From Rickettsiales bacterium (GTDB lineage Bacteria; Pseudomonadota; Alphaproteobacteria; Rickettsiales; JABSSG01): 64,000 nucleotides of DNA. Made by a program: the position numbers. Below, piece by piece: positions 9,001 through 15,000 of the stretch. The stretch is taken from assembly GCA_013214525.1 (NCBI GenBank), contig JABSSG010000024.1:44754-108753 (forward strand). Direction: 5' to 3'. Each line of letters begins with the position of its first letter. The first letter of the stretch is position 1.

Positions 9001-12000
9001 AAAGCAGCAGCGGCAAGAACACCTTCTGGTGCACCACCTATCCCTACATACATATCCACAGCAGTATTAGGTAGTGCTGTTGCAATCACAGCAGCTATAT
9101 CGCCATCTTTTATTAACTGAATTCTGCTGCCCGCTTCCCTAATTTTAGCAATCAACTCTTCATGTCTGGGGCGGTCTAATACAACTACTGTTAGATCCTC
9201 TATGGAACATTTCTTTAATTTAGCCAAATTAGCCAGATTTTTTTTTATAGGATCATCAAGATCAATTATCAATGAATTATGTCTCTCACCAATAGCTATC
9301 TTTTCCATATAAACATCAGGTGCATTCAATAAACCACCTGCTTCTGTCATTGCTATTACAGACATGGAGTTAAGACCTCCTGTAGCACAAATAGTTGTTC
9401 CTTCTAAGGGATCAAGAGCTATATCTATTTTAGGGCCATTTCCTGTGCCAACTTTTTCTCCAACATATAACATTGGAGCTTTATCTCTTTCCCCTTCACC
9501 AATTACAACAGTTCCTTCTATATTCATCTGAGCAAGCGCAGACCGCATTGCATTAACAGCTACTTCATCAGCTTTCTTTTCATCCCCTCTGCCAATCATT
9601 GAATATGCTGCAATAGCTGCTGCTTCAGTCACTCGTATTGCTTCCAATAATATATTACTGTCCAATTTAGTTGCTAGTGATGTATCAGTCATAGATAATT
9701 TTTAGCTAAATATAATACTCTGTCCTAGACTAACATTTTAATGTTATTGTTGCAACGGTATTGGTTTATTTTTTATATCATATGTAGAATCATCTGTAGA
9801 TTCGCTTTTTGATTGAGTAGAACTCTGTTGTTGTTGCTGATTAGAAGAATCTTTTTGCTTTGATTGCACCGAATCTTGTTGAGGCTGCGACAAGGTTTGC
9901 TGCTGCTTTGCATCTTGTTGCTCCTGATTAGCAGACTGAACTGAAGGTTGCTGCTGAGATTTAAGAGACGTTTGCATTTGAGTAGCATTTTGTAGTTCCT
10001 GCAATTTTTTATTAAGTTGCTCTTTACCTTTTTGTGTTGGAGCAGCAGGTGCTTTTTCCAGTTCTAAAGTTTTAGTTTGAGCATTAGGATTTTTAACTTG
10101 TTTAGCTTTTTCTGATAATTTTTGTATAGTTTCTGTTTTTTTAGTTAACATCTTCTTTTGTTGAATTGCAGAATATTCTTTTTTAGGGCTATCAGATAAT
10201 GGAGTATATCCTGTTTTATTCTTAGTGTTGGTGTTGGTTTTAGTATCAGTTTTAGAAGAAGCAGTTACTTTATTATCTGATTTTTGTGTTTTTTTAGATA
10301 AATCTTGAGTTTTAATTTCTCCATGCACAGATACAGGTTTCTTTTTTGGTCTAATATAGGTTTTTTTATTTGAAGTTCTTTTTTTCTTTTTAGAAATTTT
10401 TGATCTTTTTACAGTAGTTTTTCTCTTTGGTAAAGGTAATGGCTTAATTTCATTTTGTTCCTCCTCACTAACAAAATCATAAATATAATCATTTTTATTT
10501 TGTACAGCTTTTTGCTTATTACCCTTTCTACAATTTTTATAAGATACATAGGGAGAATTGCCAAAAGGAACCCTTCTTGAAGTATAAGGGTTACATGAAA
10601 CACACGTGAACAAAAATACAAAAACTATTATTACTCTAAATAAAGCCACGCTGTAATGAATCATTATATTAATTTATCTCTTATTTAAAAATTTACCACG
10701 ATATTTGAGTTGTTGTATACAATTTTTAACTAAATTATAAAAAGAATTATTCCAATCTTTAAACATTTTTCTTGCATTACCTGCAAAACTTGGAAGCTTT
10801 TTAGAGTTATTTAGTAAATCCTGCAACTTTAATGCTAAATAATCCGGTGCGAAATTCTTTTCAAGAATAATAGTAGCAGCCTTCTTTTTCTCCAATTCCC
10901 TTGCATTAAAAAATTGATGGTTATCTGTAGCAAAAGTAAATGGCACAAGTATTGCAGGTCTACCAAGTGCAATCAACTCCGAAACTGTTAAAGCTCCAGA
11001 CCTTGAAATTATCAAATGAGATCTAGCAAATTTTTGTCCAATATCATCAAAAAAAGTTTTAACTTCTGCATGTATTTTATTTTGTTTATAAAAAACTTTC
11101 AAATTTTGAAAGTTTTCTGCCCTACATTGATGATACACATATATTCTATTCCTCAAACTTGGTTCAAGTAATAAAATTGCTTTGGGTATAACATCACTAA
11201 ATATTTTAGCTCCTTGACTACCACCTAAAACCAAAATATAGATCTTACCTCTGGCAGATAAAATTGGATATCTGTGTTTTCGAGCAGCTAGTATTTCTGA
11301 TCGCATTGGTGTTCCAGGATAAAAAATCTTCTTAGGACTCATATTATCAACTCCCTTTGTTTCTTTAAAGCATAAGGAAACTGCAACTGCTAAATTCAAA
11401 AAACATTTACTTGCCCTACCAACAATAGAATTAGGTTCATGTATTAGTATCGGAACTCTAAGCAAGACTGCTGCAACCATAGTAGGAAAAGATGGATAAC
11501 CTCCAAAACTTACTAAAATATCTGGTTTAAATTGAAACATTAAAATAGTAGCGTGTAATACCCCAAACAAAATCTTTAACGCTCCAAATAATTTTTTAAA
11601 AATATTGCCAGACAACGATGACGAAACTATTATTTTATATTTTAAATTTTTTGAAAATTGGCTTTTAAAATTCAAGAATCTTTTATCTGCTAAAATTAAG
11701 CATAAATTTTTATCTTGCTGCAACATTTCATCTAATGCTAACGCGGGAAAAATATGTCCACCTGTGCCACCAGTTGCCACAACCACTTTATATTGCTCTT
11801 TACTCTGAGTGTTCTTTTTATTTGTAGTACTCATATCAATTTTTTGATCAGCTTGTTTTTAGTATTTTGATAATATTAACCATACGTAAAAAGTCCGAGA
11901 TTTTAAAAAAGAAAATGTAAATAATATCAAGCTCCTGCCTTCGCAGGGACAAGCTTAAGACATTTTTTAGCGAAGATAATAGTTTCATTTTCTTTTTTAA

Positions 12001-15000
12001 AATCTCGGACTTTTTACGTATGATTAGTATATATATTTAATATAACATAAAAATCTTAGATAACATGAGCCATTTAATTTTAGAACCATTAGAAAAAGCA
12101 ATTACGCAACTAGAGATTGGCATGGCTCTTAAAGAGCAGTCATCAGATAATGAATTACTTCGTGATGGTGTTATTCAAAGATTTGAATATACTATAGATT
12201 TGGCATGGAAATTATTAGCATATTTACGTGATGCTTTTAGTGAATCCAATTTACCATATAAAGTAGATATAGTAGATTGGAACACCCTCTCTGATGATTT
12301 TAAAAAAATTGTGCAACAGGATAAAATCTTGCTCCACTATTAAGAGTATATACTAATCGTACTTGAAAAATCCTAGTTTTAAAGACAGAAAATGGAATTA
12401 ATATCAAGTTTAAAAATTCGCAAATATCGTTGATATTTAAGACATTTTTAAATGAAGATAGTAGTTTCATTTTCAAACTTTAAAACCGGAGGCTTCAGGT
12501 ATGATTAGTATACATACATCATTTTTTAGTAAGAGAAAGCATTATGCCCATAGCAATTGCTGTCGCAAGTATTGAAGATCCTCCATAACTTATAAACGGA
12601 AGAGTCATTCCTTTAGTTGGGAATAGATTCAATGTCATGCCCATGTTAAAAACTGCTTGCATACCAATTTGTATTAAAATGCCTGAAATCGCAATTATTT
12701 TAAACTTATTACTGCTATGCAAGATAAGATATAAACCACGCGTAATCAAAAGAGCAAACATTATTATTAAAAAACAACAGGCAATAAAACCCATTTCTTC
12801 ACCCATTACTGCAAATATAAAATCAGCATGCGAATCAGGCACATATTTTTTTATAGCACCATCACCTGACCCCACACCATAAAGGCCTCCTTTTTTAAAA
12901 GCTTCCATTGCCTTCTTTATCTGGTAATTACCAAAATTTTGTGGATCCAGAAATAAATCTATCCTTGTTCTTACATGAGGCAAAAAAACATACGCTAAAG
13001 AAATACCAATTATACCAATTATACCCATCACAAGAATCCATAAAATAGATAACCCACCTATAAATAATTCTCCCACCCAAATTACAGAAAACATTATTGC
13101 CATTCCAAAATCAGGTTGCAAAATTAAAAGTAATACTGTCAGCACATAAAAAAATCCTGAAATTATAAAAACAGGAAAATCAGGATGCTTATATCTAATA
13201 GATATAATCCAAGCTATAAAAACAATAAAAAATGTTTTAGCAAGCTCAGAAGGTTGAATTGAAAACATTCCCAAACTTAACCAACGTCTTGCCCCTTTTA
13301 TTTCATGTCCTTTAACTAATACTAAAACAAGAAGAATTAACGATAAAAAAAAGCCAATTATAGCAAATCTTTTCAAACATTGCTCTGTCATCAAAGTTAT
13401 TGAATACATCAATACAAATGCAACTGATAAATATAGCACATGTTTTTTTATAAAATAAAATGAATCTAATTTTAGTTTCAAAGCGATAGCTGGACTTGCA
13501 GTAACTACCATTATCAAACCTAAAAAAAAAGTTATAGCTATAATAACAACTAAAAACCTATCTAGTGATAATAAAGGAGAGATAAATATTGATTTTAAAC
13601 TATCTTTTATCATAAAAAAATCATGATTTGAATCTATGTACTTGAAGATACAATTTTTAAATGTGATGAGTATAAATTAGCTTGTGTAATTATCAATAAG
13701 GTTAGCCATTTTATTAATTTCTTTTCGAACAAAATATCCATTATATGGTTTTGAAACAAACCCTACTTTACCTAAAGCAAAAAGCTTATTCAGTTCCTCA
13801 TTATTCACAACTCCACTCTGTGCTATTATTGCAATATCATTATATTTTTTATCAGCCCTAATTTCACTAATTACACTTACTCCTGAAATTGGCATCATTA
13901 TATCTACAAAAATCATATCTATATCTCTATAGTTACTTTTTAAATATTTAAAGAACTCATCTACTTTGGTAAATGTTTCCACTTTATGACCTAACTTAGT
14001 AAGTAATATACTTGCAGATGCACAACATAATTCTTCATCATCTATAAACAATATATTACAAGAGCGTATTGTTTCCATATTCTGTTGGCATCCAGAAACT
14101 TCCTCTTGAATACCAAAAGGAATAAAAAAATAAAAAGTACTACCACGAGAATTTTGGTTATTTTCCACCCATATTTTTCCATCATGCCTATCTATAATTT
14201 TTTTAGCTAAAGCCAACCCTAAACCTAATCCCTTTTTGACTGACTCACCATCCGTTTTATCTCCTCTTACAAACAGTTCAAATATTGAATTTAAATCTTT
14301 TTCCTCAATTCCTTTTCCTTGATCTTTTGTAGCCACACATAGACCATTAACTTTTTTATTTTGTGCATTCTCCAAAGTATAACTATAAATATCTACTGTA
14401 ATTGTACTATTTTCTGGACTAAATTTTATAGCATTCATACAAACATTTGAAAAAACTTGCTCAATACGATATTTATCACAAACAATTTGATATCCTTCAA
14501 TATCTCCTAGTTTCTGATCCGACAAAGAAACAGTTATATTCTTCTTATGTGCAAGAATTGCTATATCCTGAATCATATTTTTTATCAACTCTAGAAGATT
14601 AACCCTTCTCATATCAAATTCTGAATCTCTAGAGATAGATGATACATCTATCCAATCATTGACCAAATAAGCTAATTTCTGAGTGTTTTCAGCAATATGT
14701 TTTAGTGAATCTGATATCTTCTTCTTAGAATATTGATTGTATTGATCCAATAAGTCATTAGCCAAAATATCAACCACATGCACAGGTCCCTTAATTTCAT
14801 GACTTACAAAATTTAAAAATCGTTCTTTAACAGCCAAAGATTTTTCTAATTCTTGTGTTTTCTTAGAAACTCTCCTGCGTAAAACTTCACCAATGCCAAA
14901 ATGGAATTGATCTTTACTTCCCGCAAAGATCACACAAAATAGAATGATCATGGAATACAAGTAAATGGCAATATTAATATTTTGTGAATCTACTTGAAAT

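What the first reader, a model, noticed from the sequence alone, without database searches (positions are those of the whole stretch)
11871..12512. Chimeric HEPN/MNT toxin-antitoxin remnant bracketed by two repeat copies inside the ftsW-murG interval
The dcw neighbours ftsW and murG are separated by 684 bp. That interval holds repeat copy A, a 92-aa plus-strand ORF and repeat copy B. The ORF joins the N-terminal ~55 aa of an HI0074-type HEPN protein (RDGVIQRFEYTIDLAWKLL) to the C-terminal ~30 aa of a minimal nucleotidyltransferase (LPYKVDIVDWNTL). This implies an internal deletion across two adjacent TA genes. It looks like a fossil of a defence or addiction module brought in between two repeats, or trapped there. 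It gives a dated example of how the repeats remodel conserved operons.
Basis: partly seen in the sequence, partly recalled or inferred. Interest (0 to 1): 0.55.

Follow-up and report, generated by a model that had tools for sequence, protein, structure and literature searches.

The report
Dead toxin-antitoxin remnant between ftsW and murG
A 92-codon gene between two cell-division genes is what remains of a HEPN/MNT toxin-antitoxin pair after one deletion fused the two genes and removed both active sites; it is ordinary gene decay and sits between two copies of a small mobile repeat.

Summary
murG (10674-11834, -) and ftsW (12519-13613, -) are 684 bp apart. The gap holds repeat A (11874-12031), a 92-aa + strand ORF (12065-12343) and repeat B (12349-12512).

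ORF residues 1-51 are the N-terminus of an HI0074/PF08780 HEPN toxin. Residues about 52-92 are the C-terminus of an HI0073-type minimal nucleotidyltransferase (MNT). Intact relatives, including one on a Rickettsiales plasmid, have HEPN (132 aa) followed by MNT (98-103 aa) with an 11-nt overlap. One deletion of about 406-409 nt therefore gives this in-frame fusion. It removes both the toxin RX4HXY motif and the antitoxin GSX10DXD motif.

Four syntenic relatives (62-69% MurG identity) have ftsW and murG overlapping or 3 nt apart, so the whole interval is a lineage-specific insertion.

The repeats belong to an abundant palindromic family found only between genes. A and B are only about 71% alike, and the housekeeping genes xseA and rpoZ are bracketed the same way. 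The repeats are therefore probably independent arrivals, not the vehicle.

Unexpectedly, about 28 other short proteins in public data are HEPN-N::MNT-C fusions, each with a different junction. The ten whose clusters I looked up hold only one or two sequences. This points to recurrent decay, not a conserved family. Interest is low to moderate.

The parts
10674..11834 (-). murG. Its N-terminal coding sequence is still alignable with relatives, but its start is now 684 bp from ftsW.
   Evidence: Pfam PF03033 and PF04101. N-terminal alignment with L039-L042.
11835..11873 (.). Stretch of 39 nt between the murG start and repeat A. It contains AAAAAATTGAT, which resembles the ancestral ftsW/murG overlap sequence. 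A target duplication is possible but not significant.
   Evidence: best local alignment P about 0.06.
11874..12031 (+). Repeat copy A. It is a 158-nt palindromic, MITE-like intergenic repeat with 56-nt arms that are 91% complementary. Its central module is replaced by a GC-rich mini-hairpin, CCTGCCTTCGCAGGG, at 11934-11948.
   Evidence: -72 kcal/mol, z -14.8.
12065..12217 (+). HEPN-derived half of the chimeric ORF (codons 1-51). It corresponds to helices alpha1-alpha2 of an HI0074/PF08780 toxin. The RX4HXY motif is absent.
   Evidence: It is 70.6% identical to the L003 and L005 HEPN proteins over residues 1-51.
12209..12220 (+). Deletion junction (AAATTATTAGCA, encoding K-L-L-A). It lies in a short imperfect repeat, AAGTTnnTTGCA, shared by the HEPN and MNT genes of the closest intact pair, L003.
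12218..12343 (+). MNT-derived half of the chimeric ORF (codons 52-92 plus stop). It corresponds to the C-terminal strand and helix of an HI0073-type minimal nucleotidyltransferase. The GSX10DXD motif is absent and the VDIVD strand is retained.
12349..12512 (+). Repeat copy B. It is 164 nt, in the same orientation as A, begins 5 nt after the ORF stop and ends 6 nt before the ftsW stop codon. It is close to the family consensus: 87% identical to copy 53527-53692.
   Evidence: -50.8 kcal/mol, z -9.4.
12519..13613 (-). ftsW. It ends ...LTKK*, about 5-6 residues shorter than in the relatives. Its TGA stop lies in the sequence AAAAAATGA, which in relatives contains the murG start codon.

Best explanation
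The interval is a lineage-specific insertion into the ancestral ftsW/murG overlap.

**What was inserted.** It began as a compact type VII HEPN (HepT-like, HI0074 family) to MNT (MntA-like, HI0073 family) toxin-antitoxin pair on the opposite strand. A single deletion of about 406-409 nt, probably at a short microhomology, then joined HEPN codon about 51 to MNT codon about 58.

**Why the fusion is in frame.** MNT normally starts 11 nt inside HEPN, in the +1 frame. A deletion of 1 mod 3 therefore fuses the two genes in frame.

**Why the product is dead as a toxin-antitoxin system.** It lacks the toxin's RX4HXY RNase and acceptor-tyrosine motif. It also lacks the antitoxin's GSX10DXD nucleotidyltransferase motif. 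It can neither cleave RNA nor AMPylate.

**The repeats.** Two copies of an abundant, mobile, intergenic palindromic repeat (MITE-like) inserted independently on either side. Together they make up about 320 of the 684 bp.

**Effect on the flanking genes.** ftsW lost about 5-6 C-terminal codons. murG is no longer translationally coupled to ftsW and must be read through two long hairpins or from a new promoter.

**Shown versus inferred.**
- Shown: the chimeric composition, the gene order in intact relatives, the missing motifs, the insertion relative to syntenic relatives, and the multi-copy and mobile nature of the repeat.
- Inferred: the one-step deletion at a microhomology, the order of events, and the lack of function.
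For: - **N half is HEPN.** PF08780 positions 3-48 of 126, E 2.3e-12.
- **C half is MNT.** HI0073 (1NO5) residues 64-99, E 1.1e-7. MNT HMM positions 53-100 of 102.
- **Intact pairs exist with the right order.** HEPN 132 aa then MNT 98-103 aa with an 11-nt overlap in L003, L005 and the Ca. Bandiella numerosa plasmid. Each half of the ORF is 66-72% identical to them.
- **Deletion size and junction.** The DNA alignment shows one clean gap of 406-409 nt (1 mod 3). The junction sits in AAGTTnnTTGCA, which occurs in both L003 genes.
- **Insertion.** L039-L042 share the synteny DnaJ, methyltransferase, hybrid kinase, FtsW, MurG, unknown gene, GlpX, RecJ. In them ftsW and murG overlap by 20, 20 or 4 nt, or lie 3 nt apart. 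The FtsW C-terminus is truncated, and the remnant of the ancestral murG ATG lies next to ftsW.
- **Other chimeras are not a family.** All have different junctions, and the ten checked are in clusters of one or two sequences.
- **Repeats are a mobile intergenic family.**
  - About 12 copies or fragments, all intergenic.
  - One copy in relative L039 sits at a site that is empty in the window and in L040-L042.
  - A and B are only about 71% identical.
- **Precedent.** MNT-HEPN modules inserted into operons in one strain but not its sister are reported in PMC2701414.
- **Motif roles.** The functions of RX4HXY and GSX10DXD are taken from PMC11586414.
Against: - The remnant shows no excess decay. 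It deviates at 1 of 29 strongly conserved HEPN columns and 0 of 12 MNT columns, as good as intact family members. It also keeps a 92-codon open frame in a 30% GC genome. Either the deletion is recent or there is some constraint.
- The microhomology is seen in a relative that is 71% identical, not in the true parent.
- Only one metagenome-assembled contig carries this locus. A second assembly of the same organism breaks inside repeat A.
- No intact parent pair could be sought in the rest of the genome.
Confidence: 0.85

Rival explanations
1. The chimera is a functional mini-protein. It keeps HEPN helices alpha1-alpha2, which form most of the HEPN dimer interface, and the MNT C-terminal strand and helix. 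It could act as a dominant-negative decoy or anti-addiction factor against related HepT toxins, for example toxins arriving on plasmids. On this reading, such fusions recur because they are selected.
For: - About 28 short HEPN-N::MNT-C in-frame fusions exist among the 223 proteins analysed (the hits).
- The window ORF is as conserved at family-invariant positions as intact proteins.
- The HEPN dimer interface is mainly alpha1, alpha2 and the Y-loop (PMC11586414).
- A homologous intact pair sits on a Rickettsiales plasmid.
Against: - Every fusion has a different junction and length, 81-190 aa.
- All 10 checked are in clusters of one or two sequences, on 1-5 contigs.
- The only two-member cluster differs by L to P in the conserved LLRDG motif.
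- The search was biased towards fusions, because the query is itself a fusion and only in-frame products are called as a single protein.
- There is no recognisable promoter or ribosome-binding site beyond chance.
Confidence: 0.07
2. The two repeats delivered the module. Repeat-TA-repeat moved as a composite, transposon-like unit into the ftsW/murG overlap.
For: - A and B are in direct orientation and abut the cassette tightly, 33 nt upstream and 5 nt downstream.
- A short similar motif, AAAAAAT(T)GAT, lies at both outer edges.
- For any one given gene, bracketing has a prior of about 3%.
Against: - A and B are only about 71% identical and have different central modules. B is 87-95% identical to other copies.
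- The housekeeping genes xseA and rpoZ are bracketed too. Three cases were observed against 1.7 expected, P = 0.22.
- The outer duplication is not significant, P about 0.06.
- The other chimeras examined and the intact pairs (L001, L003, L005, L045) have no such repeats.
Confidence: 0.08
3. The ORF derives from an ancestrally fused full-length HEPN-MNT gene of about 240 aa that later lost its middle. On this reading it does not come from two separate overlapping genes.
For: Full-length HEPN-MNT fusions with both motifs exist: P0201, P0205, P0215 and P0332. A HEPN-MNT fusion is reported on pAgK84 (PMC2701414).
Against: The closest relatives of both halves (L003, L005, L045; 66-72% identity) are unfused pairs with an 11-nt overlap. 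The gap against them is 1 mod 3, exactly what is needed for two-gene parents.
Confidence: 0.04
4. This is an assembly artefact. The metagenome assembler threaded a repeat-ORF-repeat segment from elsewhere into ftsW-murG.
For: There is a single MAG scaffold. An independent Logan assembly of the same organism ends 76 nt upstream of murG, inside repeat A.
Against: - A and B differ by about 29% from each other and from other copies, so they give little graph ambiguity.
- The ftsW 3' end and the murG 5' end are both altered in a way consistent with a real insertion.
Confidence: 0.03

Closest known systems
Type VII HepT/MntA (HEPN/MNT) toxin-antitoxin modules of the HI0074/HI0073 subfamily with a minimal MNT, such as Legionella lpg2920/lpg2921
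   Same: Both halves are homologous. PF08780 covers the N half. The C half matches HI0073 (1NO5). HEPN structures 1WTY, 1WWP and 8XDJ are hit. The parent architecture, two small overlapping genes, matches that of the intact relatives.
   Different: There is one fused 92-aa ORF. The RX4HXY and GSX10DXD motifs are both deleted, so neither the RNase nor the AMPylation activity is possible.
Intact HEPN-MNT pair on the Ca. Bandiella numerosa (Midichloriaceae, Rickettsiales) plasmid NZ_CP104165.1, positions 134908-135607
   Same: It is 66% identical to each half. It has the same gene order and the same 11-nt overlap, in an AT-rich Rickettsiales host.
   Different: It is complete (132 plus 103 aa) and plasmid-borne. 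The window copy is chromosomal, internally deleted and flanked by repeats.
MNT-HEPN modules inserted into conserved operons in one strain only (T. thermophilus HB8 lysine operon; D. radiodurans), Makarova et al. 2009, PMC2701414
   Same: A compact module inserted inside an otherwise syntenic operon and absent from relatives.
   Different: Here the insertion is into a gene overlap of the cell-division cluster, and the module has since been inactivated by deletion.
Functional fused MNT-HEPN proteins (Nucleic Acids Res 2026, PMC13000451) and full-length HEPN-MNT fusions
   Same: HEPN and MNT sequence lie in a single polypeptide.
   Different: Those fusions keep both complete domains and motifs. 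The described class has the order MNT then HEPN. The window ORF is a 92-aa deletion product with neither motif. Only the title and abstract of PMC13000451 were read.
Bacterial intergenic palindromic repeats and MITEs (ERIC, Correia/NEMIS, and Rickettsia palindromic elements)
   Same: They are about 160 nt long, with long terminal inverted repeats, many copies, no coding capacity and a strongly folding hairpin. Presence or absence varies at an orthologous site.
   Different: No sequence match to any Rfam family or to any plasmid record. All copies are intergenic, whereas RPEs are often in frame inside genes. The target-site duplication is undefined. The elements are modular, with an optional GC-rich mini-hairpin. 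The comparison with ERIC, Correia and RPE rests on my own knowledge.

Membership tests
HEPN toxin, HI0074 / PF08780 (HepT-like) | Sequence match above the Pfam gathering score | tested here: met
   47.4 bits against a cut-off of 31.8, E 2.3e-12, but only profile positions 3-48 of 126.
HEPN toxin, HI0074 / PF08780 (HepT-like) | Complete helical bundle of about 126-139 aa; NCBIfam TIGR01987 cut-off reached | tested here: not met
   Only about 51 N-terminal residues are present. TIGR01987 scores 29.2 bits against a cut-off of 55.8. HMM coverage is 1-59 of 132.
HEPN toxin, HI0074 / PF08780 (HepT-like) | RX4HXY catalytic and AMPylation-acceptor motif | tested here: not met
   No R-x4-H in the 92 aa (direct reading; regex). 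The motif is present in the intact relatives L003 and L005 as RNATSHNY and RNSTSHNY.
MNT antitoxin, HI0073 / PF18765-PF01909 (MntA-like) | Sequence similarity to bona fide MNT proteins | tested here: met
   Residues 53-88 match HI0073 (1NO5) residues 64-99, E 1.1e-7. The ORF is 72% identical to P0008, which hits PF18765 at E 2.4e-11.
MNT antitoxin, HI0073 / PF18765-PF01909 (MntA-like) | Pfam domain call on the fragment itself | tested here: not met
   The 43-aa C half gives no Pfam hit at E up to 10.
MNT antitoxin, HI0073 / PF18765-PF01909 (MntA-like) | GSX10DXD nucleotidyltransferase motif | tested here: not met
   Absent. The MNT profile is covered only from position 53, and the motif lies at positions 32-46.
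Type VII TA module (operon) | Two adjacent co-oriented genes, toxin plus modifying antitoxin | tested here: not met
   The window has a single fused ORF and no other HEPN or MNT sequence. The feature is met in the relatives L003, L005 and L045.
   Full-length hits exist, but with junctions at HEPN profile positions 40-94 and MNT positions 22-74. The 10 checked are in clusters of one or two sequences.
MITE-like intergenic palindromic repeat | Multi-copy, short, non-coding, with terminal inverted repeats | tested here: met
   About 12 copies or fragments in 64 kb, all intergenic, with termini TATACTAATCGTAC...GTATGATTAGTATA.
MITE-like intergenic palindromic repeat | Insertion polymorphism at orthologous sites | tested here: met
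   The L039 spacer between the unknown gene and glpX is 206 nt and holds a repeat. The same spacer is about 51 nt and empty in the window and in L040-L042.
MITE-like intergenic palindromic repeat | Defined target-site duplication and a cognate transposase | tested here: inconclusive
   No consistent duplication was seen across copies. A transposase was not sought beyond the window.
Composite transposon | Near-identical flanking copies and a duplication flanking the whole unit | tested here: not met
   A and B are about 71% identical. The outer duplication is not significant, P about 0.06.

The most novel reading that the evidence does not exclude
HEPN-N::MNT-C in-frame fusions may be more than debris. 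They recur in many unrelated bacteria, with at least 28 independent junctions in this search.

One reading is that a single microhomology deletion spanning the toxin's RX4HXY and the antitoxin's GSX10DXD is the preferred safe exit from type VII TA addiction. The bolder reading is that the resulting mini-proteins, which keep the HEPN dimerisation helices, are retained for a time as dominant-negative decoys that blunt incoming related HepT toxins.

The window ORF is well preserved at family-invariant positions. That is compatible with this reading, but equally compatible with a recent deletion.
Probability: 0.07. Interest if true: 0.6.

Novelty: new member of a known kind. Interest (0 to 1): 0.28.

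Why it matters
- **Annotation.** NCBI names this ORF (NRA73988.1) a 'nucleotidyltransferase substrate binding protein'. It is in fact a dead fusion remnant.
- **Genome evolution.** A selfish TA module and mobile palindromic repeats split a translationally coupled, overlapping ftsW/murG pair in a reduced, AT-rich genome labelled Rickettsiales. Both essential genes survived.
- **TA decay.** Many parallel HEPN-N::MNT-C deletions in public data nearly all remove the toxin's catalytic motif. This may be a general one-step route by which type VII TA modules are lost. The idea is modestly interesting and can be tested by a DNA-level census.
- **Limit.** None of this overturns current understanding.

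Tried and rejected
- **Species-representative genome scan with MurG.** It found only homologues of 33% identity or less, and the source genome was absent, so it was useless for spacer comparison. I replaced it with a protein search plus contig look-ups.
- **Target-site duplication around the whole insert.** AAAAAAT(T)GAT lies at both edges, but the best local alignment is no better than about 6% of random genomic 58-mers. 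I do not claim it.
- **Promoter and terminator scan.** It found 9 promoter-like sites against 7.4 expected and no terminators, so it is uninformative.
- **Rfam.** Nothing reached the gathering score. The sub-threshold hits are plant miRNA hairpins on repeat A, an artefact of any long hairpin.
- **Repeat against the plasmid database.** No match.
- **Repeats next to other HEPN/MNT loci (L001, L003, L005).** None found.
- **Composite-transposon delivery.** Rejected on the divergence between A and B and on the bracketing of xseA and rpoZ.
- **Conserved chimeric family.** Rejected on junction diversity and on cluster sizes of one or two sequences.
- **Foreign base composition.** The ORF has GC 31% and GC3 23%, against about 30% and 20% in host genes, so composition is uninformative.
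- **Intact HEPN/MNT pair elsewhere.** None in the 64-kb window. The rest of the genome could not be searched.
- **Structure prediction.** Not run, because it would not discriminate between the explanations.

Full report
**1. What is at the coordinates**

The window has 30.6% GC. The exact ORF product is in NCBI as NRA73988.1, named 'MAG: nucleotidyltransferase substrate binding protein [Rickettsiales bacterium]', on a 307-kb scaffold.

- murG is 10674-11834 (-) and ftsW is 12519-13613 (-). Both are confirmed by Pfam, and they are 684 bp apart.

**2. The ORF is a chimera**

- **N half.** PF08780 (NTase_sub_bind, the HI0074-type HEPN family) matches ORF residues 6-51, but only profile positions 3-48 of 126 (E 2.3e-12). 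TIGR01987 (HI0074) also matches, but below its cut-off because the domain is truncated.
- **C half.** The C half gives no Pfam hit on its own.
  - Residues 53-88 align to HI0073 (PDB 1NO5) residues 64-99 at E 1.1e-7.
  - Residues about 50-92 are 66-72% identical to the C-termini of intact minimal nucleotidyltransferases that do hit PF18765 and PF01909 (P0008, P0040, P0058).
- **Structures hit by the N half.** The HEPN structures TTHA0048 (1WTY), TTHA0636 (1WWP) and the Legionella HEPN toxin (8XDJ).
- **Motifs.** The toxin motif RX4HXY and the antitoxin motif GSX10DXD are both absent from the ORF. Their roles are taken from PMC11586414. Both are present in intact relatives.

**3. How the chimera arose**

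In the closest intact relatives the order is HEPN (132 aa) then MNT (98-103 aa), with an 11-nt overlap. This holds in three loci:

- L003 (292-690 and 680-991);
- L005 (3613-4011 and 4001-4297);
- an annotated pair on the plasmid of the Rickettsiales endosymbiont Ca. Bandiella numerosa (NZ_CP104165.1, 134908-135607).

A DNA alignment shows a single gap of 406-409 nt in the window relative to these pairs. That length is 1 mod 3, which cancels the +1 frame offset of MNT, so the fusion is in frame.

The junction lies at window 12209-12220 (AAATTATTAGCA, encoding K-L-L-A). It falls in a short imperfect repeat, AAGTTnnTTGCA, present in both genes of L003 (10 of 12 positions match). This suggests a microhomology-mediated deletion. 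It is an inference from a relative that is 71% identical, not from the true parent.

**4. The interval is an insertion**

A protein search with MurG found relatives at 62-69% identity. Four of their contigs (L039-L042) share the synteny DnaJ, methyltransferase, hybrid histidine kinase, FtsW, MurG, unknown gene, GlpX, RecJ.

- In them ftsW and murG overlap by 20, 20 or 4 nt, or are 3 nt apart.
- In the window FtsW ends LTKK*, 5-6 residues early. Its TGA stop lies in AAAAAATGA, which in relatives contains the murG start codon.
- The murG N-terminal coding sequence is otherwise alignable.

The insertion therefore hit the gene overlap, and it postdates the split from these relatives. A short similar motif lies at both outer edges, but it is not statistically convincing (P about 0.06).

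**5. The repeats**

- **Copy number and position.** Sensitive blastn finds about 12 copies or fragments in the window, all in intergenic spacers.
- **Consensus.** The consensus is about 165 nt, with termini TATACTAATCGTAC...GTATGATTAGTATA. It has a variable central module and an optional GC-rich mini-hairpin, CCCTGCCTTCGCAGGG.
- **Fold.** A and B fold into long hairpins (z -14.8 and -9.4).
- **Mobility.** One copy occurs in the closest relative, L039, in a spacer that is empty in the window and in three other relatives. The family is or was mobile.
- **Known families.** No Rfam family and no plasmid record match it.

**6. Did the repeats bring the module in?**

Probably not.

- A and B are only about 71% identical and have different central modules. 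B is 87-95% identical to other copies.
- Two housekeeping genes, xseA (31459-32796) and rpoZ (52997-53434), are bracketed by repeats in the same way.
- With 10 of 53 spacers occupied, three bracketed genes against 1.7 expected is unremarkable (P = 0.22).
- The second chimera examined (L001) and the intact pairs L003 and L005 have no such repeats.

The repeats are best read as independent colonists of the new intergenic space.

**7. An unexpected result: the same kind of fusion recurs**

An exhaustive phmmer search of 1.84 billion representative proteins gave 513 hits at E up to 1e-3. I mapped 223 retrieved proteins onto HMMs built from 61 intact HEPN and 19 intact MNT sequences.

- 45 proteins carry both domains.
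- About 28 of these are short (81-190 aa) HEPN-N to MNT-C deletion products.
- Their junctions range over HEPN profile positions 40-94 and MNT positions 22-74.
- All but one lack RX4H, and 24 lack GSX10DXD.
- P0002 (81 aa; L001, next to ftsB and gyrB) has the junction ...QRY|KVD..., different from the window's ...WKLL|AYL....
- The ten fusions looked up are in clusters of one or two sequences at 90% identity, on 1-5 contigs.
- The only two-member cluster differs by L to P in the conserved LLRDG motif.

However, the junction diversity and small clusters show parallel decay, not a conserved family.

The apparent frequency is inflated. The query is itself a fusion, and only in-frame products are called as one protein.

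**8. Is the remnant old or young, dead or alive?**

- It deviates from family consensus at 1 of 29 strongly conserved HEPN columns and 0 of 12 MNT columns. That is no worse than intact members.
- Its GC and GC3 resemble host genes.
- The deletion is therefore probably recent relative to neutral decay, or there is residual constraint. I cannot separate these two.
- With both catalytic motifs gone it cannot act as a toxin-antitoxin system.
- A decoy role through the retained HEPN dimerisation helices (alpha1-alpha2; PMC11586414) is not excluded. I give it about 7%.

**9. Comparison with what is known**

- MNT-HEPN modules inserted into conserved operons in one strain but not its sister, and a HEPN-MNT fusion on pAgK84, were already described by Makarova et al. 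2009 (PMC2701414).
- Type VII HepT/MntA biochemistry is well established (PMC7641770, PMC11586414).
- The locus is a decayed new member of a known kind.
- The repeats resemble ERIC, Correia or RPE-type elements in form, with no detectable sequence relationship. That comparison rests on my own knowledge.

**10. Verdict**

- The core interpretation, a chimera made by internal deletion of a TA pair and inserted in a lineage-specific way between ftsW and murG, is supported.
- The idea that the repeats delivered the module is not supported.
- Interest is 0.28. The locus is a clean, well-documented example of TA decay and operon disruption. The recurrent one-step deletions are a mildly interesting side observation that could be tested by a DNA-level census.

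Noticed in passing
window 31291-31462 and 32810-33000 around xseA (31459-32796); window 52892-52982 and 53527-53719 around rpoZ (52997-53434): Two housekeeping genes, exonuclease VII large subunit (xseA) and RNA polymerase omega (rpoZ), are each bracketed by copies of the same palindromic repeat, just like the TA remnant.
   Followed up: partly
window 11934-11948, 22557-22572, 32939-32955, and a reverse-strand copy near 20050-20075: A GC-rich mini-hairpin module (CCCTGCCTTCGCAGGG) sits at different positions inside some repeat copies. In copy A it replaces the central module, and in others it is inserted in the right arm. The repeat family is therefore modular or nested.
   Followed up: partly
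L039 7562-7696 (closest syntenic relative): One copy of the repeat family lies in the spacer between the unknown gene and glpX in L039. The same spacer is about 51 nt and empty in the window and in L040-L042. This is an insertion polymorphism showing that the family is mobile and older than the window's lineage.
   Followed up: yes
proteins P0231, P0240, P0267, P0276, P0281, P0282 and others (500-560 aa); PADLOC PDLC03138: Many long proteins carry an HI0073-type MNT domain at residues about 1-100, fused to what PADLOC models as a type I restriction specificity subunit. JGI even names the 98-aa MNT protein P0040 'type I restriction enzyme S subunit'. This suggests frequent MNT::HsdS fusions, or TA modules embedded in type I R-M operons.
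   Followed up: no
proteins P0201, P0205, P0215, P0332 (HEPN then MNT, 228-243 aa); P0261, P0301, P0305, P0307 (MNT then HEPN, 226-247 aa): Full-length single-polypeptide fusions with both catalytic motifs exist in both domain orders in metagenomic data.
   Followed up: no
protein P0248 (94 aa): An in-frame deletion inside HEPN alone joins profile position about 59 to the C-terminal helix and removes RX4H. This is another route to toxin inactivation.
   Followed up: no
window 9744-10664 (-): A 306-aa protein rich in Q, K and S, with an N-terminal hydrophobic segment and no Pfam hit, lies immediately downstream of murG. Its positional counterpart in relatives varies from 278 to 461 aa. The dcw cluster here is reduced to ftsW-murG, sitting between a hybrid histidine kinase and this gene.
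   Followed up: no
L044 (Logan assembly SRR7648327_25476): An independent assembly of the same organism breaks 76 nt upstream of murG, inside repeat A. This is typical of assemblers stopping at multi-copy palindromes, and it means the join across the interval rests on a single scaffold.
   Followed up: partly
window 12065-12343: The public annotation (NRA73988.1, 'nucleotidyltransferase substrate binding protein') treats the truncated fusion as an ordinary family member.
   Followed up: yes
window 19908-19966 with 20024-20186; 32810-33000 with 33031-33104; 53527-53692 with 53693-53719: Several spacers hold a full repeat copy next to a partial copy. This suggests repeated insertion into or beside existing copies.
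   Followed up: no
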